A DNA stretch of 43,243 bases, from the NCBI GenBank assembly GCA_027604505.1, contig JADIIX010000162.1:1-43243 (forward strand), given 5' to 3'. The position numbers and the translations under genes were made by a program. The DNA comes from Gonapodya sp. JEL0774. Taxonomy: Eukaryota. The notes beneath the pieces were generated by a model. It saw only the letters and a list, made by a program, of their open reading frames with translations, had not been told where the DNA came from and did no database searches. Positions within the stretch are counted from its first letter, which is position 1. Each line of letters begins with the position of its first letter. Shown here piece after piece: positions 850-31,600 of the stretch.

Positions 850-926
850 CAGCTTGCATGACCCCCTTCACTTCTTAAAATCAAAAGAATGAAGCCCTGC
901 TTCGCTTTCGCTCAGCAAAACTTCGT
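850..926 (-). repeat. Right terminal inverted repeat
   Basis: CAGCTTGCATGACCCCCTTCACTTC...CTTCGCTTTCGCTCAGCAAAACTTCGT is the reverse complement of 1-77; all 3 differences are transitions at CpG. Confidence 0.9.
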
Positions 927-929
927 CTC

Positions 930-1410
930 TAAGTGGATAGGGCCCTATCGCATCACTGAGAAGGAGAGTGACAACATCTTCCGGCTCAGCCACATCAGCA
1001 CTGAGCACGTGAGTCGAATGTGCCGATACCAGCCATGGATCACGCAATACCTGCCTGATCCACAAAGGATGGCTGAGTTGGCCCAACCTGTTTCACCTGA
1101 GATCGCAGAGAGCGATATCACCCAAAAAGAGCTGGGACCAGATTTCCAGCCAACCTACGTTGTTGAGGCAATCCTTGGCAAGAAGGTAGAACCAGACACG
1201 CAGGGTGAACTTGTCAAGTACCTCATCACGTTTCCTGGGTACATGACCCCTGAGTGGCAGCCTGAAAGCCTCATCTCCGCAGATGAGCTCATTGACGCAT
1301 ACAAACGTAAGCACCCAGCACCCATTGGCAAGATCCTCACCCGCCGTGAGTGGAAGAAGGCATTTGAGAAGCGCCGCAAACTTTTGCAAGTGCAAGGCCT
1401 GCTGGAGTGA
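930..1410 (+). mobile_element. Ty3/Gypsy (chromovirus) pol 3' end: integrase GPY/F region plus chromodomain, interrupted
   Basis: KWIGPYRITEK (GPY/F motif), then YVVEAILGKK...VKYLITFPGYMTPEWQPESLISADELIDAY (chromodomain pattern). The first 14 codons of ORF 889-1410 come from the inverted repeat. Confidence 0.85.
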
Positions 1411-1822: not shown

Positions 1823-2604
1823 TATGCCAGAGGTTTTTTTTTTATTTTTTTCCCTCTGCTATCGCAAATTTTGCGCCTGAGGTCGTCTGCTTCAGAAGAA
1901 ACGTGGGGGGTGTTGTGGTATTGACACCCTGCACATGACCACAGCCTACACATGAAAATAAGGCACAACTAGCACCACATAATAAGAACACTCTTCACAT
2001 CATCTCATACTCCAGGCCTATCACTAGGCCACCATCCCGTCATAGAGGGCTGAGACCGATACGTAGTGACAGCCCCACTACAAGCTGACCCCCCGTTGAA
2101 ATCCTCCACTCGGACCACCACCCAACCATCTTGCGATTCGAGCAATCCGCGAACAACAGGCTAAATTACGCCTAGAAAAATGTAATTCATTAGTACAAAC
2201 TACAAAGTAAAATATCTTCCTTATTTTTGGGAAAAATAGAACTCGCTCGCTGCTTGCAGCTTCGCTGTATCTGCAGGCAGTTTCTTTCTCCCGAGGGGCT
2301 GCAGTTAGTGGAATCCGACTGTAATTCATCCAACGTAAGCAACGTCAGCGACCCTGACACCTGTCTCGTCCCTCCTTGCCGCTGACTTCTCATGATCGAC
2401 AACCCTTGGTTCCTTCCCTCACCAACGGATCTTTCCTCTTGCAGGTCACTCTCGGCTCTCTATTTTTGTTCGTTATATTGTGCACGTGAACAAACTAAAC
2501 CCCCACGCCCTAGTCCCGTTCTTTCCTCCCCCCACATACATCAGCTTTTGACAATCTCATCTGTGACACTTCTGTCAATCTGCCTATCCATCAGCAAGTG
2601 AAAA

Positions 2605-5255
2605 TTACGCCGCTACTCCCCACTTAGCACCATCCTGTGCCAATTGCTGCGCTTGATTGTGCCGGCCAATCTTCACCTGTCGAGGAGAATACAGTCAGTT
2701 ACAAGTACTCTAAACCCATCCCACCACAGAAAGACATCAACCACCATCACGATAACCATCAACTTACAAATACGACCTTGGGCATCCCAGGTTCATTCTT
2801 CAGATTCCACAACTTTTCAAGCAGGTCCCGGTTCTTCACCGGGCTTTTATCTTTCGTATGCCAGCCGTTGGCCTTCCACTCCTGTATCCACTTGTCCAGA
2901 CACTGGCCCAACACATAAAATGGAAGGACCCAAAGGAGAGGTAGGTGGGAGTTTAACAGAAGAAGTATTGTAGATTGATTATCAGGATTGAATTGGGAAG
3001 ATTAACTTTTCAAAGCACTCACATTGATAGCGTAACTGTTGTTTGTGTGCACACGGAGCTCACTGACCCTTGTGCCAGCCATTTCCATGGCTCGGTAGAT
3101 GGCCTTGTAATTTGAATCCAACCTGCTGTGAGATTTTCCACAAAATCACACCAGAATCAGACATTACCTGAAGCGCTGCGCGGTTGTTTTTGTTGTTCGC
3201 CGATTCCGCTGCAGTAGTGACCAAGGGTTCCGACACGTTCCGGGGGTCCTCCTCACCCCACCATACGCCAACTCCAGCCAGGGCACCGGCTCCCCCGTTC
3301 CCAGAGCAGGATCCGTGAATCCACACATTCGCTGGCGCTGCTCGACTTGATGAAGATCCGCGCAGAGAGAGCCGACCCATGTCGACATGAAGCGTGGTGG
3401 CATCGACTGTAACGGACTCGACGTATGGAGGTGGCAGCGCTTGACTTGGGCCATCCGTGTCTACCGTCGAGCTCTGCCTTAAAATCCGACTTGAGCCTGG
3501 AGTCCGCGACGCGTCGAACGCATTTGTCAAAGAGCTTGTCTCCGATGATCCCAGACGCTTCTTCATATCTGCTTGCATCACGCTCACCCCCGCCGCTGAT
3601 GTCGGTTCTATCTCCTCGTGAGTGGGCTTTTCCTCGTCCTCTTTCTTAACGCCTGCCAACCGTTGGAGTTTTGGCAGAAAGGCTGCCTGAATTGACTCGG
3701 ATTCGGCGGGAAGTGACACGCGACTAATCATCATGTTCATCCCCAGAGCATCTGCAACCACAGAATTGGGTGGAGTTGAATCTCCAATCTCTGCTGCAGG
3801 GAGAGGTTGCTGTCCGCCAATCCGTTCCACAAATCTCTTGGAATGGCCGTCGAATCTGACATACACAGATATGTCGCATGATGGGTAATCGAGCACCTCT
3901 GGATCAGGTGCATCCACCTCGTAGATGAGGACAGTGGGGTTGTTGGGCTGATCGATCCGCCGAGCCAATACCGGTTCGTTCAACCCAAATTGGAGATGGC
4001 AGCTCGTCGGGCTAAGTTCTTCTACTCAAACACACGAGGCCTTATGACCAGAGCTTTACAGGATGTGATGGCATGCACTCACGAGGATAAGTGTGCAACA
4101 TGCACTTGACCTTGAGACGCGTTCCAAAACAGAGGTCCACGAGAGGACTACCGGGTTGGACCAACTCGCATGGGTTCTGTAGTGTGTCAAGTGTGTGGCG
4201 CTGTCTTTTGAGCTGACTCAAAATGTACCTACCTCATGCATGGATTTCACGTGTTGGTCAAACTCCCTCTTCCGCGGAAATAAATTCTGCCAACCATGGG
4301 TTTGGTTGAGAAAAACGGGCATTTAGGCGCCATCCTGGTTTTCTGAGTAAGACTCACCTCCTCGGAGCACTTGCTACACATCCAGTGGTGCGAGACTTCG
4401 CAGAAGCTTTTGGTTCCACTCGCATGATTGTTGTAGACATTATTGTCCCATTCGAACCCTGGCCGACTTGACAATTAGCGGGTACTAGGTTGCCGGAGAA
4501 CAGGGAAAGAGAAGCACGTACCGTACAGTTTCAGAAACTCCTTCTTCCACTCCTTCTTGTCATGAGCGACGTTTAGGTGCCCTCGGAGATGCGTTGCTAG
4601 ATCGCACATGGTTGAATTGGTAAGATTGGTGACGGAAAAACCGTCTTTGGGCTGGCAGGTTACACTTTTCCCGCAGAATTTGCAGATATTACTTGTATTC
4701 TGAGGCAGGCGCGATGTGGACCAGTCAAAAGCGAACTCGGAGATCACTTCCTCGATTGAGAACTCTACTTACGTGTGTCGCTGCCATGCCATCACTTTCC
4801 CCGATTATTCCAGCAGACGATAGTGAGTACCGCCATGGCCCTCCCACTGGAGCACCTGATTGCGAATTACCGGGATCCGTCAACAGGGTCACCGACCTAG
4901 GCGTGGCGGAATGGGGGCCAACCCCCTGCGAAGCTTCGTCTTGCAGCGTCCACGAAGAGTCGAGCGAGTTTGCAGGGCTGCTGCCACTGTCCTTGCTGCT
5001 GTCCTGGCCGGAGTTGGCCCAAGGGTCCAGGGGGATGAAAGCACTCAAAGCGTAAACATCTTGGTCTGCCGGCTGGCCGTAGCGCTCAGATTCTTCTCCT
5101 TGGTGAGACCAGTGGAAGTCACCCGGCATGTAGAAATCAGCAGCAAGAGAGGTGGGGGACGTGGCGTGTGGCTGGAAGAACTGGGGGTCGTGAAGGGTTC
5201 TCATGCCAGGGATGGGCAACCCCGCGCTGCTGCTGTTGCCACGGTGGGATTGCAT
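2605..5255 (-). CDS. C2H2 zinc-finger protein with a C-terminal catalytically degenerate RNase H1 domain (about 9 exons)
   Basis: Hand-spliced exons: 5255-4773, 4699-4522, ~4458-4358, 4286-4233, ~4177-4084, ~4021-3168, 3103-3023, 2902-2768, 2676-2605, all GT-AG and in frame. Zinc finger [27 protein letters not shown]. RNase H motifs [84 protein letters not shown]..|[17 protein letters not shown]. Confidence 0.8.
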
Positions 5256-5810
5256 GACTGCGTGCGGATGAGCGAGAGGCGATGTGGACCATTTCTTCAG
5301 GTGTGGCGGGCAGGCGGTGCTGTTAGCTAATCGCGGCTGAACGAATCAAGCGCTCAACCAAAAAGAACACGCAAATAAAATTGTGTTTATTTGATTTAAT
5401 TAGCTTCCTAAATACTTACTTATGATTTGGTACTCTGCTGCAGTCGTTAATAATAGTTGCTTTCCGTGTGCTGGTTGTGGACTCGGTCCTCGGATGCATT
5501 GATGTTCCGATTGAACAAATCAGTGGGCCAAAACAATCAACATTCAAACGGACCAACAAGCTTCATCCGCATCCCTTGTCCCTCCGGTTGTCCGCATCCA
5601 AAAAACTGTTCCCGCCATTCTCATCCGCATCAGATGTTCAGGTCAGAACTTGAACATGGCGTGGAAATCGGAACTTCCCCATCACTCACGTTGTGATCAC
5701 GGAGGGGGCGCCGCCCCGGGGGCCGGCGGCCGCGCCGCCCGCGGGGCGCGGGACAGGCTGGCGCGCTGCGGGACGGGGCGAGGCCGCCGACGGACGTCCG
5801 CGCGCAGCGG

Positions 5811-5820
5811 NNNNNNNNNN
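5811..5820. other. Assembly gap (10 N); further gaps at 29593-29602 and 30923-30932
   Basis: N runs, each adjacent to long G/C homopolymers and degraded sequence. Confidence 0.95.
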
Positions 5821-17660: not shown

Positions 17661-20600
17661 ATGCGCGGCACATTGCTGAGGGCAATCCTGGGACTGCTCG
17701 CTCTCTCCATCCTCCAAGTCCAAGTTTTCGCGATTGGGCCAGGAGGGGGGGGTGGAGGTGGTGGAGGCGGAGGTGAGCTCGCGAGACCGGGATACCCGAA
17801 TCGGAAGTCGGATCCAGCATCATTGGCGCATTTCTTCGCTCAGGAATCGTAACGACGACATCCGCGACGTGAGTTCTTTGGCCTTGGCCTGTCATTATTA
17901 TCGCGCCCCCGCCCTGATACCCCACACCTTACCTGCCCCGCACTCCAATTCTTGGCAGCAAAACCTCGAGTACGACATCGCGAACTAGCAGTACGACTTC
18001 TAAAACAGCTACAACAACATCGACGACCACTCAGACGTAAGAGCTTTGTTTGGTAGAGTCAAACCTGTTTGATCGCATTCAACCACGACAATATCTGTTT
18101 GTCGAAATTTCAGGAAAACAACATCGTAAGTTACATATGATTTAAATACCAATTGTCAAACCACAGAAAAGTTTCTGACATAAGTTCACGTTAAGGCTAA
18201 CACAGAAGACAAGCTCAACCTCTACGTAAGTCGTGCCTGACCTGCAATCATCAGTCCCTTGAAAATCAAACAGCTTTTGCTTGGCTCAGCGGCACGCTGA
18301 CGACTACAGCTACAATCACGTAATTATTCTGAATTTGGGTGCGGGCTGGTTGGTGTTCTCACACTTTTTCGCATTGAACTACTGTCACAGCTCCACCCCC
18401 AGTACTTCCACCGAGAAAACCACGACCGAGACCACAACGTCGCAAACGCCCACCACCACCGAGACCCAGACAACGAGCACTGAATCAACCACCTCGGAAA
18501 CACCGACAACTACGGAGAGCACGACTTCCGAGACTCAAACCACGACTACGGAAAGCACCACTTCAGAGACACCAACGACCACCACAGAGAGTACAACCAG
18601 TGAAACGCAGACCACGACCACCGAGAGCACTACCTCGGAAACTCCCACGACCACCACAGAGAGCACAACCAGCGAGACGCAGACCACGACCACCGAGAGC
18701 ACCACCTCGGAAACACCCACGACCACAACCGAAACAACGACTTCCGAGACTCAGACCACCACCACAGAGACCACGACCTCGGAAACACCCACAACCACCA
18801 CAGAGAGCACAACCTCAGAAACACCAACCACGAGCGAAACTGAAACGTCCACCACCGAGACCACGGAGACAGTGTCTTCAACCACTTCAATGACCATTAC
18901 CGAGACCACCCAGACTCCTGAAACGACGAGTTCAGAAACTACTGCAACTATCACGCCCACGACCTCCTCTCAATCGTAAGTGCAGGTGCTCGCAGCATCT
19001 GAAATACGTCATCTGATCTTGGCTGATGCTCACAGAACCAGCTCATCCGCCACCAAGACGAAAACGTTGGTGTTAGATTGACGATTTGCACTCTGTTAGT
19101 TTCCTTCTCACGGATTTCTCCCTACAGCACCTCTCCCACTACCACCAAATCTGTTACGACCACATCTCAGACTAAAACGAAGACGTGAGATATCGTTCAC
19201 CGTTGTAGTTTCTTCCATTTTATTGCGTTCTTACGCCACGAGTACTCCAGCGCAACCTCCACCTCTACAACAAAAACAAAGTCGACGACCACCCTCACGT
19301 GAGAATAACTTTAATATGTGCGATCATACGTTCCTGCGGGTAATTGCTCTCATAATTCTCCAGCACCACTAAAAGCAAGACTTCGACTTCCACCTCGTGA
19401 GTTCTCAGGAAAGCAACATTATACTCTCTCTTCGGAGACAGTCAAACAAGCTTCGCTGGCTCCAACAATGCTATTGGTTTCAATTCCACAGGGCGACCAA
19501 AACGGCGACATCAACTTCCACGAAATCTGCGACATCAACTGCGACCAAATCTGCCACTAAAAGCTCCACCACGACGGGGACAACCACAAAGTCCGCTACT
19601 ACGACTGCAACACCAACGCAGTCTTCTACCACCTCATATACTGCGAGTACCAGCAGCACGTTGACTATCACAGTGTCTAGTACGACGTCGTTTACTGAAA
19701 CGTGAGCCTGTTTGAATTGAAATTCTCCTGTGTTAAAACACAGCGATAACACGATGCGATTTCCTAGAACCACAACCTTTGAAACCCCCACAACGACTTC
19801 AGAAACGCTAACCAGCTCAACTGAGACAACGACTGAAAGTACCACCTCGGAAACGCCCACAACCACCACAGAGAGCACGACTTCCGAGACCCCGACGACA
19901 ACCACCGAAACAACTACATCTGAGACTACGAGCACCGAATCAACAACTTCGGAAACACCAACTACCACTTCTGAAACACAGACTACGACCACTGAGAGTA
20001 CAACCTCGGAGACCCCTACGACCACCACAGACAGCACCACTTCTGAAACGACCTCCACTGAATCAACCACGTCGGAAACCACCGAAACTGCTTCCACCAC
20101 ATCGTCCATGACGATCACGGAGACCACTCAGACGACAGAAACTCAAACGTCGGAAACTGGAACGACTAGCTCGGAAACAGCCACAGCGTGAGGGTTTCAT
20201 CGTTTCGATTGACCTGTGCTTTCTTTACCGAGCTTGTTATGGCACCACAGTGAACTCACAACCACTTCTATTGTCACGATTCCATTCATCCCGGCACTCT
20301 CCACATCGTGAGTAAAGCACCAGAGTGTTCGATCGTTGTCTTCTCTGAACTCACGAAATTAATCGTTCATCAGTTCCACTACCAAGCCCGGCAAGACCTC
20401 TACCACATCCCGAACCAAAACTAGGACGACGACAAAACGAGCAACTACCACAAAACCGAAACCCACAACCACGACAGTGACCACGAAACCCGCAAAAATC
20501 ACCACGACTATAAAGCGGTCGTGTGACACGATCTACGCATCATACACTGCAGGTAGTGCCATAACAGCCACTGACCAGGCTGATTGGGAAGCTTGGTGAG

Positions 20601-21982: not shown

Positions 21983-24661
21983 ATGAGGACCACGAGCGCT
22001 CTGATCGTAGGTCTGGCAGTGGCCTTTATGGCGGTGATCCACCCGTCGAAAGCTGCAGTGGGTTCCGGCACCCAGTGTGTTGTTGACGGGGATTGCTACA
22101 ACCACAACTGTGAGTATCATGTTGTGCACCACAGCAGCACCTGTTTCCATGATGAAATGCCTGTGAATTGAATACTGGTCTTGATGGGCCATTTTCGGTT
22201 GGAAGGTCACCTCTGACGTTTCGAAACCTTAATCCATTCAGGTGACCTGATTCCCAGCGATAACGTCGGAGTATGCTACTGCAGCTCTTCCGGGTCTTGG
22301 TCGTGGAATTACAGTGAGTTCTCTACCTCTTTTTCGCTCATGGATTGTTACAGATTCTTATCGTGTCTTCAACGCCACACAGACATGAGATGCAACTTCG
22401 GAAAAGTTCAATACCGTTCAAACTGCATGGGGACTGGCGGCAACTGGCTCGATGTCTATCCTTCGAGGGCCTGCCCGCAAACGACCACGTGAGTACAGGG
22501 ACCACAGTCGGTGATGTTTCAACGGATTTGGACAAGACCTTGTATTACTGCAGGACACGAACAACGACCAAGACGGCCACCACAACGTACGTTGTGTTTC
22601 CTTTCTCACACTTGGTAGCTGATTTCCTTTTCTGAGTTGGTTCTCCGTGTTCATTCTTTTCCCCCACTCTATAACGTTCCATTTGGAACTTCAGGAAAAC
22701 AACCTCTTCCACGAAATCGTGAGCTTTCTCTTTGAAATACTCCAGAAAAAACTTTGATTCATCTGAGTCGTGCAAATATAGAACTACTACTACTGTTTCG
22801 ACCACCAAAACTCTACCGTCCACAACTACCACAGCAGCACCCAGCACCACAACCAAATCCACAACGAGCGAGACCCCAACCACCACCACGGAGAGCACAA
22901 CTTCCGAAACCCAGACCACAACCACTGAAAGCACAACCTCAGAGACTCCCACTACTACGACAGAGACCACCACTTCTGAGACCCAGACCACGACTACGGA
23001 GAGCACAACTTCTGAGACACCGACCACAACCACGGAGACAACCACTTCTGAGACCCAAACCACCACTACCGAGAGCACGACCTCGGAAACGCCTACGACT
23101 ACGACAGAGACAACCACGAGCGAGACCCAGACCACGACCACCGAAAGCACGACCTCGGAAACACCTACGACTACGACAGAGACCACCACGAGCGAGACGC
23201 AGACCACGACCACCGAAAGCACAACATCGGAAACTCCCACCACGACCACAGAAAGCACAACATCGGAAACTCCCACCACGACCACAGAAAGCACAACGAG
23301 TGAGACTGAGACGACTACCACGGAGAGCACCACAACCGAGACAACCAGTACTGAATCCACCACCTCGGAAACCACTGAGACCCCTTCCACCACATCTTCC
23401 CTGACAATTACCGAGACGACAGGAACCGAAACAACCAGCTCAGAGACTTCCACCGCGTGAGCGACCTTTGCTGTTGTATTCAGCTCTATCTGTTTCTGAT
23501 TTAACCCGTTTATGCGAATTCAGAGAGCCAACGACCGCCCTCATAGTTTCCTCAGCTCTCTCTTCTTCGTGAGGCCGGCCGAGAGCGATTTATTCCTTTA
23601 CTATTGACCTTTTATACTCTCATCATTTCTTTAGTACGACTGCTAAGCCTGGCAAGACGTCCACTGCGACAAAGACGAAAACCTCCACCAAGACAAAAAC
23701 GGCCACAGCTACGAGGACCAAAACGGCAACCACTACAAAGCTGCCGAAGGTTACCACGACTGTGACCACCAAGCCGGCAAAGATCACCACGACTGTTACC
23801 ACCAAGCCGGCAAAGATCACCACGACTGCTACCACCAATCCAGCAAAGATTACAACCACCATCAAACGTACGTGCGACACGATTTATTCGACATTCCTTG
23901 CGGGTGGTGCCATTACAGCGACAGACCAGGCCGATTGGGAAGCTTGGTGAGTTTACGGAAACCGTAAACAATGTAACTTGCAAAGGTGATCCATCTCGGT
24001 TGATTTTTGCTCACATAGGTCTTGCAAAACATGTAAGTTGTTAATCCCAATTGAGTCTCCCTCCCACTAATAGCCGATGGTTTGCTATTCTCAGGGTACC
24101 CGGGTGGCATTGGAAAGCCACGCACATGTGACACCATCTACACTGCGTTCTTGAGTGGTGTCACCATGACCACTCAGGACTACTCAGACTGGGATGCATG
24201 GTGAGTTTGACAATAGGGAATGAGAACCCAGGCACATGCTAACTGTTAGATATCAATCCATTTCAACCCTTCCAGGAACTGCAAAACTTGTGAGTCCGCT
24301 GCCAACTTTGCATGCCCCCGTAATTTTTCGACTTCCTTCGTGGCTCTCTAACACCTTTGTGTATCAGGGTTCCCGCACGGCATCGGCTACGTTCGTAGCT
24401 GTGACACCATTTACAAGGCGTTCAAAGCGGGCACCGCGATGACTGCGCAAGACTCAGCAGATTGGGCGGCGTGGTGAGTGATAAGCAAATCTTCCTGCTG
24501 ATATGCTTCAATTGACCATTTATGTAATCGGTTCATTCGATAATTTGTTGATTCATACAGGAACTGTAAAACTTGTAAGTAAATTTGGCGATGGAGAAAG
24601 GGTTATCATCTCTTATTCTTTGCGTTTTTGTTCAGGGTTCCCCACCGGTATTGGCAAGTAA
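21983..24661 (+). CDS. Secreted Thr-rich mucin-like protein B with an 8-Cys N-terminal head and three C-terminal 40-aa Cys/Trp repeats
   Basis: Signal peptide MRTTSALIVGLAVAFMAVIHPSKA, a Cys-rich head over three exons, an ET-repeat exon (~22781-23456), TTKPAKITTT repeats, and three C-terminal units with the same intron positions as gene A. Stop TAA at 24659-24661. Confidence 0.85.
22860..23380 (+). repeat. Coding minisatellite, 12-aa ET-type repeat (gene B)
   Basis: Visible in ORF 22732-23460, with alternating ETP/ETQ units. Confidence 0.9.
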
Positions 24662-28683: not shown

Positions 28684-31600
28684 GCAGGCAGCGGAGGGCG
28701 CGCAGTGGGCAACGAGAGGAACTTCTGACGTTCTTGTCCATCGACTTTCTTTCATTCCTGCTTCTTTATTTCGGAGGGTATGGCTTCTTTGTTATTGTTT
28801 GCTTTGCCTTTACATTTAGTCTCCTAGGGGGTGGGCATCGGGGTTGTGGGTTTGGACAGAGGATTTGAGCTGTGTTCAGGGGATATGGGGCGAGAGGGCT
28901 GAGGTTTGATGAACGATCGTCGGCTCGGAGGGCGAGCGCGGACTGGACGATCGTTAAGCTCGGAGGGCGAGCGGGGGACCTTCCCTGCCAGATGCAGGAC
29001 GCTTGCACATTGGAACAAGGAGTGCCGATGATATCACTTGATCAGCACTCTGAATACCACCCGGCACACCACTACCAGAATTTCGTCGTACTCCGCAACT
29101 GCGCTGTGCTCTCTTTCCTGGCCGCGGGGAATTTCGTGTCGCCATCCATCCTCTCCCCCGCCCCGCCAACCCCTCCGTCCTCCTCCCACCTCACAACCTC
29201 AAGCAGGGAGTGATCTTCTTTGGCTTCGCATCTATCAAGCATGCACCGATATCACGGACTCGTCAACATCCTGCACCACGTGCCCCGTCAAACGTATTCC
29301 GCTCTCACACCTACTCCAACTCCGATCCCACACCACTCCCCGATGATCCCAATCCTACTCCCACTTCCACTCCGTTGACGATCTGATTCTGGCTCGCTCC
29401 ACACTTGATCTCGGTCGGCATCCCCACGCCATACATCTGGTCCCAGTTTCTGCAGAGCCGCCACAGCAATCGGCCAAGGACGCCATCTCGCTCCGCCGCC
29501 TCAGCGCCATCGGCACCTCAACTCTCAACCGAGAAATTTCCCTCAACAACCAGGCCTGCATCAGGGCGGGGGGGGGGGGGGGGGGGGGGGGGNNNNNNNN
29601 NNCCGCCGCCTCCGGGCCATGGGCACCACAACCCTCAACCGTTAAATTCCCCCCCCCCCCCCGGCCCCCCCCCCCCCCCCCCCCCCCCTCCTTCATCCTC
29701 CAACGTGTCCCTAACCTCATCCGCAACCACGCGCTCCGAATTGTCGGCTTCGACTTCTTCTGCCGATTCTCGTACTTTCCGCCCCCACCACCCACACACA
29801 CCGCCCCGCCCCCCCCCACATCCCAACAGAAACGCACCTCAACCGAAAATATCTATGCGCGCGAGCTCCATTTGATTCGACAACTGCGCCAGATACCTTG
29901 TCCTGTCACGCCTCGAACAGATAGTCAGGAAAGGCCTCATCAGACTCCTAGTGGGTCGACATCATTGATCTCGGAGTCACACGGCAATTGATTGCAGTCC
30001 AGTCGAATGGGCAAAGTTGTTGATTAAGCTCACATCACTCTCTGTACACCTTACCCGACGTTCCGTGTGCTTGTCAGGAACCCTCGCGGGTCCCGATTCC
30101 ATCATGCCCCAAAGGATGCTGCGTGCAGCGTCTCCTCTTTGGGATTGCGTGGATCGGCGGTGGGTTTTGAGTGAGAGAAAGGTATGAGTGCCGTGCCAAT
30201 AGGTTGGAAGTTGTTGATCCCGCTCACCGGACTCTCCGTCAATTATAACCGACCCATAGTGAAGACGACGCCTACATCGAATCCCCATCCTCATCCCGTG
30301 CCGAGAGACGGCTCTTTATCCACGACATGTAGTGGAGAGGTGCGATTCATTATGTTGACGGTGAGAATTACCGTGCTGTCATGGAGTCTCCGCGTGGTAT
30401 CTTAAACTCACCTTAGATGCGATTTGCGCGGCCTCACTTCAGTTGACAGAACTCCGAGCCGCAACTCCCCTCACGTTCACCGTCTATCGACGACTGCTCG
30501 CTTGTGAGAAGGTCGGTGGCATCCAGTTTGAGCTCCGCTACACACCCCATCCTGGGCGTGCATCCAGCACGTTTGGGATGGGCCCATGTGTGGTTTGTGC
30601 TCCTGCGAACCCTGGCCCGGGCGTACATCCAGTACGTTTAGGACAGGATAATGCGCGGACAAGACTGGCTGATCATTCGACCCGAGATACCGGAGAATGG
30701 GACATCACGTGACAATACGATACAGTACCGTGACGGCGGATTGGTGACGTAGTAGCCGGGACGGGAGGAAGAGCAGTTCGCTCCGTGTAGGGGGTCGGAT
30801 AGGAGGAGGAGGGTGTACTCCGTGATGGGTTTATGGAGGGATGCGTTGGAGTGATGTCGGGAGTGGGGAGAGGTTGGGGGGGGGGGGGGGGGGGGGTTTT
30901 AAACAGACAAAAAAATATATTAANNNNNNNNNNCCCCCCCCCCCCCCCCACCGCAAGGACTAAGTATATTATTAATCTGGACTAATCTGTTCACTTCAAG
31001 TGGGAGCTACACCGGGTTTTATGGTCTCTTGCATGTGTATAACAATGTTTTTGCTAAATTTATGATATTGGCAACGGTTGAGTGTTCTCCGCGTCGGAAG
31101 TGCCAGGAGGGAATGTAACCAAAAAATACATCACAATTCACAAACACGAAGATCGTCAAGTCGCACAGCTATGACCCTGACGATGGACGGCGACAAAGGG
31201 GAGATTCTAATAGGAGATTCCATGTATTACATAAAGCTGGTTTGGTATGTAGCAGTGCTCTCGTGAGTGTGCTATGGATGAGGGATGATCGGCGGGGGAG
31301 ACACCACTACGCTGTTCGTGGAAACCAGCACAGTAATTCTCTCCACCAAATGTAAATACGACGCTCGGTGTTCCTCGTTGGGCAAAACGTCGTTATCTGA
31401 CAGTTGTGAGTAGATAGCAGAAGAACATCAGAAACCCAGGAGGAAGAGCGGCAACCTGAAGGAGCCGGCGGTTGAACCTTCTCCGACATTCTCGCCAAGA
31501 ATGTTAATGGCAGGAGCAGCAAAATAACAACAGCAAATTCAGCAAAAATTTGCAAATCTCCACCACCGGCACCATAGCGTACTGGCCAGAGTTTGTCGCC

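What the first reader, a model, noticed from the sequence alone, without database searches (positions are those of the whole stretch)
2605..5255. Zinc fingers fused to the dead RNase H in place of the usual hybrid-binding domain
Seen: splicing reveals a canonical C2H2 finger split by an intron (CSKC-x13-HVKSMH, ~4380-4236) and an upstream long-spacer CKFC...[10 protein letters not shown] motif (C2H2/BED-like), after a Ser/Pro-rich N-terminus. All connect in frame to the RNase H exon; the ORF track shows them only as fragments. Known: eukaryotic RNase H1 normally has an N-terminal hybrid-binding domain, not C2H2 fingers. Inference: a transcription-factor-like protein combining DNA or RNA recognition with hybrid sensing, possibly an R-loop reader or a decoy against retroelement intermediates. 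I do not recognise this architecture.
Basis: partly seen in the sequence, partly recalled or inferred. Interest (0 to 1): 0.8.

Follow-up and report, generated by a model that had tools for sequence, protein, structure and literature searches.

The report
Dead RNase H1 with Cys/His-rich N-terminus
A chytrid-like fungus (Gonapodya) carries an RNase H1-type gene in which all four catalytic acidic residues are replaced and the usual hybrid-binding domain is missing; it is predicted to be spliced to a long N-terminal part with two zinc-finger-like Cys/His motifs, and it likely binds nucleic acid without cutting it.

Summary
The window is a Gonapodya sp. JEL0774 contig. On the minus strand, 5255..2605 can be spliced into a 683-aa protein. 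NCBI's own model (KAJ3336719.1, 493 aa) uses the same introns 2-4 and 6-8 but starts inside exon 2.

- **RNase H part: solid.** Pfam RNase_H scores E=5.5e-15 and human RNase H1 scores E=1.4e-15. The catalytic D/E/D/D are H/A/N/Q. The only orthologue, G. prolifera KXS09423.1, shares H/A/N. There is no hybrid-binding domain.
- **Fusion to the N-terminal exons: predicted, no RNA evidence.** A stop-free splice path exists in the real DNA and in 0 of 500 shuffles. The orthologue's annotated protein (287 aa) lacks this part, and nothing else resembles it.
- **"Canonical C2H2": not supported.** Spacings are C-x2-C-x14-H-x4-H and C-x2-C-x27-H-x3-H. No Pfam or PDB zinc-finger match appeared, and two AlphaFold runs were uninformative. 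The segment is clearly Cys/His-rich: 11 of the protein's 14 Cys lie in 164 aa.

Verdict: a real, genus-restricted pseudo-RNase H1 with a plausible but unproven zinc-binding N-terminus. It is moderately interesting and is a new variant of a known kind.

The parts
5420..5499 (-). Possible extra 5' exon ('exon 0'). ATG at 5499, GTAAGT donor at 5419, 100-nt intron 5419-5320 with a CTAAC branch site. It would add 48 aa in frame before Met 5255.
   Evidence: the longest ATG-started in-frame path is 209 codons. Prediction only; the codon-usage score is not distinctive.
4773..5255 (-). Exon 1, aa 1-161. Ser/Pro-rich, no Cys. Ends at a GTAAGT donor.
   Evidence: The in-frame link to exon 2 is non-random: 0 of 500 shuffles reach 161 codons or more. 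The model frame has the best codon-usage score of six frames. NCBI's model P0001 does not include it.
4522..4699 (-). Exon 2, aa 162-220. Holds motif 1, C167-x2-C170-x27-H198-x3-H202-x4-H207 (4684-4562). NCBI's model starts at Met192 inside this exon and so lacks the Cys pair.
   Evidence: Pfam gives only zf-C2H2_4 E=2.3 and zf-BED E=8. An alternative in-frame acceptor, with the exon starting at 4651, would delete the Cys pair.
4358..4458 (-). Exon 3, aa 221-254. Carries C240, H244, H245 and the Cys pair C248/C251 of motif 2.
   Evidence: P0001 uses the same junctions.
4233..4286 (-). Exon 4, aa 255-272. Carries the His pair H266/H271 of motif 2 (C-x2-C-x14-H-x4-H across intron 3).
   Evidence: Same junctions in P0001. 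No zinc-finger profile hit.
4083..4176 (-). Exon 5, aa 273-303. Three more Cys (275, 288, 297) and H300.
   Evidence: Same donor in P0001. The intron-5 acceptor is a GAG/TAG tandem: NCBI starts exon 6 at 4024 and my model at 4021, a difference of one codon.
3168..4021 (-). Exon 6, aa 304-588. Contains a beta-rich unknown segment, a long low-complexity linker with a conserved LPPPY (3437-3423), and the first third of the RNase H domain. That third includes H539 (3317-3315, in place of the first Asp) and A586 (3176-3174, in place of Glu).
   Evidence: The 93 codons upstream of the first in-frame Met (3740) are stop-free, which happens in 368 of 20000 shuffles. They score best in the model frame.
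3023..3103 (-). Exon 7, aa 589-615. N609 (3043-3041) stands in place of the second Asp. This is the same change as the D210N chain of human RNase H1 in PDB 2qk9.
   Evidence: The junctions are validated by an unbroken alignment to P0003.
2768..2902 (-). Exon 8, aa 616-660. Basic-protrusion region: W..W, GW and V.N are kept.
   Evidence: Pfam RNase_H E=1.2e-4 on this exon alone. Alignment to 2qk9_A.
2605..2676 (-). Exon 9, aa 661-683 plus the TAA stop. Q670 (2649-2647) stands in place of the last Asp. The loop before it is shortened.

Best explanation
This is a Gonapodya-specific paralogue of eukaryotic RNase H1 whose four catalytic carboxylates are all replaced (His, Ala, Asn, Gln) and which has no hybrid-binding domain. 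It is predicted to be one spliced gene whose N-terminal half carries a Cys/His-rich, likely zinc-binding segment, and it likely acts as a non-cleaving nucleic-acid binder, most plausibly of RNA:DNA hybrids.

**Shown**
- The domain identity and the four replacements.
- The first three replacements are shared with the sister species' orthologue.
- No HBD family is detected.
- The exon-intron structure is non-random and in frame.

**Predicted**
- Exons 1-5 and the RNase H exons lie on one mRNA.

**Inferred**
- The Cys/His motifs bind zinc.
- The dead domain still holds a hybrid through the retained DNA-channel and 2'-OH-contact positions.
- The N-terminal module, tethered by a roughly 200-aa flexible linker, takes the topological place of the HBD and would give affinity or site choice.
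For: **Identity of the domain**
- Pfam RNase_H scores E=5.5e-15 on P0001 and 9.7e-20 on P0003. Human RNase H1 catalytic domain 2qk9_A scores E=1.4e-15.
- Catalytic columns were read in 162 aligned RNase H domains from 150 proteins. 86 are D-E-D-H-D; P0001 is H-A-N-H-Q and P0003 is H-A-N-gap-V. Only these two share H-A-N. Of 116 domains with the first three columns present, 8 are not D-E-D.

**Signs of constraint**
- P0001 and P0003 are 57% identical over the domain (78 of 138 aligned) against 34% over the linker (42 of 123). This points to constraint on the dead domain.
- Positions aligned to human N151, N182, W221, W225 and N240 are kept. Their roles in hybrid contact are recalled from the human RNase H1-hybrid structure paper, not read here.

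**Architecture**
- No Cauli_VI match in any exon or in P0001/P0003. About 80 of 148 relatives have one.
- Splice-path tests: the real DNA has a path and 0 of 500 shuffles do. 0 of 500 shuffles give an upstream ORF of 161 codons or more.
- All 4 admissible paths use the same 5 donors.
- NCBI's model agrees for introns 2-4 and 6-8.
- Codon usage favours the model frame in exon 1, exon 2 and the part of exon 6 upstream of Met 3740.

**Cys/His content**
- 11 of 14 Cys and 10 of 24 His lie in aa 162-325. That is 12.8% Cys+His, against 2-4% elsewhere.

**Laboratory precedent**
- Catalytically inactive RNase H1 (D210N) serves as a hybrid probe (PMC8266564, search listing and start of abstract only).
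Against: - No RNA evidence: no RNA run was listed and no genome is held.
- The only orthologue as annotated is 287 aa. It starts at the equivalent of Met 3740 inside exon 6 and has no N-terminal module.
- P0001 residues 1-205 found only itself among proteins of 271-863 aa. Exon 6 residues 1-88 found no credible relative in a full HMMER scan of 1.84 billion representatives. The N-terminal half is therefore unconserved or unannotated elsewhere.
- The motifs match no zinc-finger profile and no PDB chain. Their spacings are non-classical.
- In this species the positions aligned to human R179 and T181 are Asn and Lys, next to a 6-residue insertion. Hybrid binding may be weakened. P0003 keeps Lys and Thr there.
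- Without an HBD, the catalytic domain alone is expected to bind hybrids weakly (recalled knowledge).
Confidence: 0.5

Rival explanations
1. Two genes merged by prediction. A small Cys/His-rich protein (exons 1-5) would end at the TAA at 4044-4042 if intron 5 is not removed. A separate RNase H-like protein would start at Met 3740, as in the annotated G. prolifera orthologue. The 'fusion' would then be an artefact of in-silico splicing.
For: - P0003 (287 aa) begins exactly at the equivalent of Met 3740, and the alignment starts at its residue 4.
- The N-terminal part has no relatives.
- Both my model and NCBI's are ab initio predictions.
- The ORF 4042..4233 shows that reading through intron 5 hits a stop after 14 codons.
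Against: - The 93 codons between the intron-5 acceptor and Met 3740 are stop-free (1.8% of shuffles). They score best of six frames for codon usage.
- Intron 5 has a GTGAGT donor and an in-frame acceptor. The whole path is absent from 500 shuffles.
- The JGI model of the sister species may itself be truncated at the first Met.
Confidence: 0.2
2. One gene, but the Cys/His motifs are not nucleic-acid-binding fingers. The N-terminus would be a fast-evolving, largely disordered lineage-specific extension. The dead RNase H fold would serve as a protein-binding scaffold, for instance recruited through the conserved LPPPY motif to a WW-domain ubiquitin ligase, rather than as a hybrid reader.
For: - No zinc-finger profile or PDB match.
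- The pattern is not rare in a Cys/His-rich segment: 8.7% and 20% of shuffles.
- LPPPY is conserved in both species in an otherwise 34%-identical linker.
- The phosphate-pocket positions are altered in this species.
Against: - The Cys/His clustering is strong: 11 of 14 Cys in 164 aa.
- The protein-language-model look-alikes of P0001 1-205 are mostly C2H2-type clusters, but at 0.84-0.86 this is only a lead.
- The DNA-channel Trp residues and 2'-OH-contact Asn residues are kept.
Confidence: 0.2
3. A decaying duplicate of RNase H1 with no function, still open by chance.
For: - All catalytic residues are lost.
- The family is restricted to one genus.
- The N-terminus is an orphan.
Against: - The same three replacements occur in two species, so the loss is old. 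Even so, the domain stays 57% identical while the linker has drifted to 34%.
- Nine exons remain open with consensus splice sites.
Confidence: 0.07

Closest known systems
Eukaryotic RNase H1 (for example human RNASEH1, PDB 2qk9; Pfam PF00075 with N-terminal PF01693 HBD)
   Same: - Same catalytic-domain family (E=1.4e-15).
- Same overall layout: a small N-terminal module, a long flexible linker and a C-terminal RNase H domain.
- The Trp/Asn positions of the DNA channel are kept.
   Different: - All four carboxylates are replaced (H/A/N/Q).
- There is no HBD.
- The His-loop is shortened.
- The N-terminal module is a Cys/His-rich segment with no known family.
G. prolifera JEL478 KXS09423.1 'ribonuclease H-like protein' (P0003)
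   Same: Orthologue. It has the same H/A/N replacements, the same conserved linker blocks including LPPPY, and 57% identity in the domain.
   Different: It is annotated at only 287 aa with no Cys/His-rich N-terminus. I could not read its genomic DNA to see whether that part exists upstream.
Laboratory catalytically dead RNase H1 (D210N) used as an RNA:DNA hybrid probe (PMC8266564, listing and start of abstract only)
   Same: The Asp-to-Asn change is at the same aligned position (N609; one search aligns to the D210N chain 2qk9_A). The concept is the same: a binder that does not cut.
   Different: The probes keep the HBD and the other three carboxylates. This natural protein has neither.
Engineered zinc finger-RNase HI fusion (Sulej et al. 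2012, PMC3526281, abstract read)
   Same: A zinc finger tethered by a linker to an RNase H domain, giving site choice on hybrids.
   Different: It is synthetic and catalytically active, and it uses a defined hybrid-binding C2H2 finger. Here the RNase H is dead and the fingers are unproven.
Multi-domain RNase H proteins with degenerate repeats (for example P0006, three RNase_H domains, two of them V-E-S-H-R and H-E-D-H-E)
   Same: These are other natural RNase H1-type domains that have lost catalytic residues.
   Different: In those proteins an intact domain sits in the same chain. Here the only domain is dead.

Membership tests
Type 1 RNase H (Pfam PF00075; eukaryotic RNase H1) | Significant profile or sequence match to the RNase H domain | tested here: met
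   PF00075 E=5.5e-15, above the curated cut-off (56.2 against 25.8 bits). Human RNase H1 E=1.4e-15.
Type 1 RNase H (Pfam PF00075; eukaryotic RNase H1) | Four metal-binding carboxylates (D, E, D, D) needed for catalysis | tested here: not met
   H539, A586, N609 and Q670 at those columns. It belongs to the fold family but is not predicted to be an enzyme.
Type 1 RNase H (Pfam PF00075; eukaryotic RNase H1) | N-terminal hybrid-binding domain (PF01693 Cauli_VI), typical of the eukaryotic enzyme | tested here: not met
   No match in any exon translation, P0001 or P0003 at E<=10. It is present in about 80 of 148 relatives.
Type 1 RNase H (Pfam PF00075; eukaryotic RNase H1) | Substrate-contact positions (human N151, R179, T181, N182, W221, W225, N240; roles recalled) | tested here: inconclusive
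   the N151, N182, W221, W225 and N240 equivalents are kept. The R179 and T181 equivalents are Asn and Lys, beside a 6-aa insertion.
Classical C2H2 zinc finger (Pfam PF00096 and kin) | C-x2-4-C-x12-H-x3-5-H spacing (established pattern) | tested here: not met
   No match to the x12 pattern. Motif 2 is x14 and motif 1 is x27.
Classical C2H2 zinc finger (Pfam PF00096 and kin) | Profile match | tested here: not met
   None on the spliced motif at E<=10. zf-C2H2_4 E=2.3 on exon 2 covers the Cys half only.
Classical C2H2 zinc finger (Pfam PF00096 and kin) | Beta-beta-alpha fold with the four ligands clustered | tested here: inconclusive
   AlphaFold2 single-sequence models have mean pLDDT 34 and 39 and are unusable.
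Classical C2H2 zinc finger (Pfam PF00096 and kin) | Zinc binding | not testable with these tools
   Needs metal analysis of the recombinant protein.
BED finger (Pfam PF02892) | Cx2C-xn-Hx3-5[H/C] pattern (recalled) plus a profile match | tested here: not met
   Motif 1 fits the loose pattern, but zf-BED scores E=8 and 7 bits against a 20.6-bit cut-off.

The most novel reading that the evidence does not exclude
A natural, genomically encoded R-loop reader. A catalytically dead RNase H1 domain still grips RNA:DNA hybrids. A zinc-finger module that replaced the hybrid-binding domain steers it to particular sequences. A conserved PY motif links it to ubiquitin signalling. It would be nature's version of the dRNH1 probe and of the engineered zinc finger-RNase H fusion.
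Probability: 0.12. Interest if true: 0.75.

Novelty: new variant of a known kind. Interest (0 to 1): 0.4.

Why it matters
Catalytically dead RNase H1 is a standard laboratory reagent for finding R-loops. A natural protein that made the same change, lost the other three carboxylates and was then kept for a long time would show that cells themselves use 'bind but do not cut' hybrid recognition. If the Cys/His module is a real finger on the same polypeptide, it would be a natural counterpart of engineered zinc finger-RNase H fusions. It would also give a handle on how hybrids are read in an early-diverging fungal lineage. As it stands the family is confined to one genus, the N-terminal half is an orphan and expression is unproven. 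The value is therefore that of a well-defined, testable candidate, not an established system.

Tried and rejected
- **RNA evidence:** no RNA holder was listed for 2400-5500, so splicing could not be checked with reads.
- **Own genome:** none is held, so no paralogue search outside the window was possible. tblastn of the model against the window found only the gene itself.
- **Earlier scan notes:** nothing by place, sequence or words.
- **Word-index search, exon 6, 'longer' proteins:** nothing.
- **Word-index search, P0001 whole:** only itself and P0003.
- **Word-index search, P0001 residues 1-205, 271-863 aa only:** only itself.
- **Metagenome contigs:** two scans, with P0001 and with the P0001+P0003 alignment, gave no confirmed relative.
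- **AlphaFold2, single sequence:** full P0001 had mean pLDDT 34.2 and P0001 1-126 had 39.2. Both are too poor to read a fold, and no fold search was attempted.
- **PDB sequence search, P0001 1-126:** only E>=1 noise, to staphylococcal G5 repeats.
- **A Pfam 'Eno-Rase_FAD_bd' hit** on P0001 12-35 (E=0.0044, below the cut-off) was judged spurious.
- **ESM-Atlas features:**
  - P0001 1-205 gave several C2H2-type clusters at 0.84-0.86. This is below the 0.9 level and was kept only as a lead.
  - Exon 2 alone gave no usable hit.
- **Alternative acceptor in intron 3** that would give a shorter Cys-His spacer: it gives x8, which is not canonical either (read).
- **Retroelement-derived RNase H:** rejected. 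The best matches are cellular RNase H1 proteins, and the domain shows the GxGVWWG..DPRN..NNRA signature of the fungal RNase H1 relatives.
- **Literature searches** found no paper describing this protein, a Gonapodya RNase H, or a natural zinc finger plus RNase H1 architecture. That holds only for the open-access library searched.
Full report
**What the window is**

A full HMMER scan with the translation of the long exon (window 3168-4019, minus strand) returned one 100%-identical protein, P0001, of 493 aa. The word-index search and the cluster look-up name it KAJ3336719.1, 'hypothetical protein HDU93_002302 [Gonapodya sp. JEL0774]', seen on one contig of 43,243 bases, the length of this window. 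The organism is therefore an early-diverging, chytrid-like fungus. No whole genome is held for it here.

**Gene model**

Reading the minus strand and joining exons by script gives nine exons:
- 5255-4773
- 4699-4522
- 4458-4358
- 4286-4233
- 4176-4083
- 4021-3168
- 3103-3023
- 2902-2768
- 2676-2605

Together they encode 683 aa. The eight introns are 56-120 nt long. Every donor is GTRNGT except intron 6, which is GTAATG. The acceptors are CAG, TAG or AAG.

P0001 uses the same introns 2-4 and 6-8. It differs in two places:
- It starts at Met192 inside exon 2, which drops exon 1 and the first Cys pair.
- It takes the acceptor three bases upstream in intron 5, a GAG/TAG tandem, which adds one residue.

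Introns 6-8 are confirmed by homology, because the alignment to the orthologue P0003 runs unbroken across all three junctions.

**Is the splice structure more than chance?**

I asked whether a stop-free path exists from the ATG at 5255 to the end of exon 6, using only GTRNGT donors, YAG acceptors and introns of 45-130 nt.
- It exists in the real DNA. It exists in 0 of 500 dinucleotide-preserving shuffles of the 751-nt stretch between exons 1 and 6, and not in that stretch's reverse complement.
- Four paths are admissible, and all four use the same five donors.
  - One alternative uses a later acceptor in intron 1 (exon 2 starting at 4651) and would delete the CKFC pair.
  - Another shifts exon 5.
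- An ATG-started path that reaches exon 2 in frame is 209 codons long in the real DNA. It is at least 161 codons in 0 of 500 shuffles, and the shuffle maximum is 133.
- The extra 48 codons come from a possible further 5' exon (ATG 5499 to 5420) with a 100-nt intron carrying a CTAAC branch site.
- A crude codon-usage score was trained on 2,568 codons from long ORFs elsewhere in the window. It ranks the model frame best of six in exon 1, exon 2, all three parts of exon 6 (including the part upstream of Met 3740), exon 7 and exon 9. It does not rank it best in the short exons 3, 4, 5 and 8.
- The 93 codons between the intron-5 acceptor and the first in-frame Met of exon 6 (3740) are stop-free in 368 of 20,000 shuffles.

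Taken together, one spliced gene is the best reading, but this rests on sequence statistics and two ab initio models. No RNA run was listed.

**The RNase H domain**

- Pfam RNase_H matches P0001 at E=5.5e-15 and P0003 at 9.7e-20.
- The best solved relative is the human RNase H1 catalytic domain (2qk9_A, E=1.4e-15, residues 346-488 of P0001).
- I built a profile from the hits and aligned 162 RNase H domains from 150 proteins. At the five catalytic columns, 86 domains read D-E-D-H-D. P0001 reads H-A-N-H-Q and P0003 reads H-A-N-gap-V, and no other domain shares H-A-N.
- Of 116 domains with the first three columns present, 8 are not D-E-D.
- In model numbering the replacements are H539, A586, N609 and Q670.
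- N609 aligns to the Asn of the D210N mutant chain in 2qk9.
- A hand alignment with eight active relatives shows the same picture, plus a shortened loop before the last motif in both Gonapodya proteins.

The loss predates the split of the two sequenced Gonapodya species. Since then the domain has stayed 57% identical (78 of 138 aligned) while the linker fell to 34% (42 of 123). This argues for continued constraint on a non-catalytic role.

**What the dead domain keeps**

The positions aligned to human N151, N182, W221, W225 and N240 are unchanged in the alignment. I recall from the human RNase H1-hybrid structure paper, which I did not read here, that these positions contact the hybrid. The positions aligned to R179 and T181 are Asn and Lys in this species, next to a six-residue insertion. 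P0003 has Lys and Thr there and no insertion. Hybrid binding is therefore plausible but not assured.

**No hybrid-binding domain, and no finger in relatives**

- No exon translation, P0001 or P0003 matches Cauli_VI (PF01693) even at E<=10.
- Of the 148 next-best proteins scanned against Pfam at E<=0.001, about 80 by my hand count carry Cauli_VI.
- 0 of those 148 carry any zinc-finger family.
- The named ones among the ten best are RNase H-like proteins of basidiomycetes and a nematode.

**The Cys/His motifs**

- Motif 2 is C248-x2-C251-x14-H266-x4-H271. The spacer is fourteen residues, not thirteen and not the classical twelve. It is split by intron 3.
- Motif 1 is C167-x2-C170-x27-H198-x3-H202, with a further His at 207.
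- Neither motif matches a zinc-finger profile:
  - There was nothing on spliced P0001 or on its first 126 residues at E<=10.
  - zf-C2H2_4 scored E=2.3 on the Cys half of motif 1.
  - zf-BED scored E=8.
- No PDB chain matches.
- Two single-sequence AlphaFold2 runs gave mean pLDDT of 34 and 39, so they say nothing.
- A language-model look-alike search of P0001 1-205 listed several C2H2-type clusters, but at 0.84-0.86, below the level at which the tool says a hit means anything.
- Shuffling shows that a loose C2H2 pattern appears in 1.6% of whole-protein shuffles but in 8.7% of shuffles of aa 162-325. The long-spacer pattern appears in 20% of shuffles of that segment.

The robust fact is the composition. 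11 of 14 Cys and 10 of 24 His fall in those 164 residues (12.8% Cys+His, against 2-4% elsewhere). Such clustering is typical of metal-binding modules. I rate zinc binding as somewhat more likely than not, and a nucleic-acid-binding C2H2/BED-like finger as possible but unproven.

**Conservation of the N-terminal half**

None was found.
- The only orthologue, G. prolifera KXS09423.1 (P0003, 287 aa), starts at the equivalent of Met 3740. It aligns from its fourth residue onward.
- Exon 6 residues 1-88 had no credible hit in the scan of 1.84 billion representatives. The one hit there, P0007, is a pentaxin-repeat protein.
- P0001 residues 1-205 found only itself among proteins of 271-863 aa.
- Two metagenome scans found nothing.

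I could not read the G. prolifera genome. I therefore cannot say whether its model is truncated or whether the N-terminal half is specific to JEL0774.

**Mechanism**

I commit to a non-cleaving binder. The dead RNase H1 domain would hold an RNA:DNA hybrid, or a related duplex, through its retained DNA-channel and 2'-OH-contact residues. The Cys/His module sits at the N-terminal end of a long flexible linker, where the HBD sits in ordinary RNase H1, and would add affinity or choice of site. The conserved linker blocks, including an LPPPY (a PPxY-type motif, known from textbook knowledge to bind WW domains), may connect the protein to other factors. Only the domain identity, the replacements, the lack of an HBD and the exon structure are shown. 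Everything else is inferred.

Laboratory parallels exist:
- Catalytically inactive RNase H1 as a hybrid probe (PMC8266564, listing and start of abstract only).
- An engineered zinc finger-RNase HI fusion (PMC3526281, abstract read).
- A plant survey of RNase H-like proteins describes RNH1 as HBD, disordered region and RNH domain, and mentions zinc fingers only in other clades (10.1101/572842, passages only).

**Rivals**

- **Mis-merged gene model.** A finger protein would end in retained intron 5, and an RNase H-like protein would start at Met 3740. I give this about 0.2.
- **One gene, but not fingers.** The motifs would not be nucleic-acid fingers and the dead fold would be a protein scaffold. 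About 0.2.
- **A decaying duplicate.** About 0.07.

**Novelty and score**

The gene is already in GenBank as a hypothetical protein, and its orthologue as 'ribonuclease H-like protein'. My literature searches found nothing on its dead state or its architecture. It is a new variant of a known kind: an RNase H1-family pseudoenzyme with an unfamiliar N-terminal half, confined so far to one genus. I score interest at 0.4. The dead, conserved RNase H1 is a clean and testable observation, but the headline claim (zinc fingers on the same polypeptide) is only predicted.

Noticed in passing
window 862-1410 (+): An open frame with a weak Chromo domain hit (E=1.2e-4, below cut-off) and an integrase C-terminal hit (E=0.0049). 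It looks like the tail of a chromodomain-bearing Ty3/gypsy-type integrase, a retroelement remnant about 1.2 kb downstream of the dead RNase H gene.
   Followed up: partly
window 5420-5499 (-), intron 5419-5320: A possible additional 5' coding exon. It starts at ATG 5499, has a GTAAGT donor and a CTAAC branch site, and would add 48 aa in frame. If it is used, the out-of-frame ATG at 5292 is no longer an upstream ATG.
   Followed up: partly
window 3423-3437 (-): An LPPPY motif (PPxY type) conserved between the JEL0774 protein and the G. prolifera orthologue, inside an otherwise poorly conserved linker. A second conserved block (S-x-x-AESES, then an acidic KEEE-P stretch) lies near Met 3740.
   Followed up: no
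window 4651-4700 and 4022-4027 (-): Two places where alternative in-frame acceptors exist. In intron 1, exon 2 could start at 4699 or at 4651; the latter removes the first Cys pair. In intron 5 there is a GAG/TAG tandem, and NCBI's model and mine differ there by one codon.
   Followed up: partly
window 18263-18979, 19721-20191, 22723-23460 (+): Long open frames made of Thr/Ser/Glu-rich tandem repeats (units such as TTTESTTSETPTTT), suggestive of mucin-like or cell-wall proteins in several copies.
   Followed up: no
window 5811-5820, 29593-29602, 30924-30933: Three runs of 10 N, which are scaffold gaps. The first lies only about 300 bp upstream of the candidate 5' exon, so the promoter region of the gene may be incomplete.
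   Followed up: no
P0006 (unnamed ENA record, 538 aa): A protein with three RNase H domains. The first is intact; the other two read V-E-S-H-R and H-E-D-H-E at the catalytic columns. This is another natural case of degenerate RNase H1-type domains.
   Followed up: no
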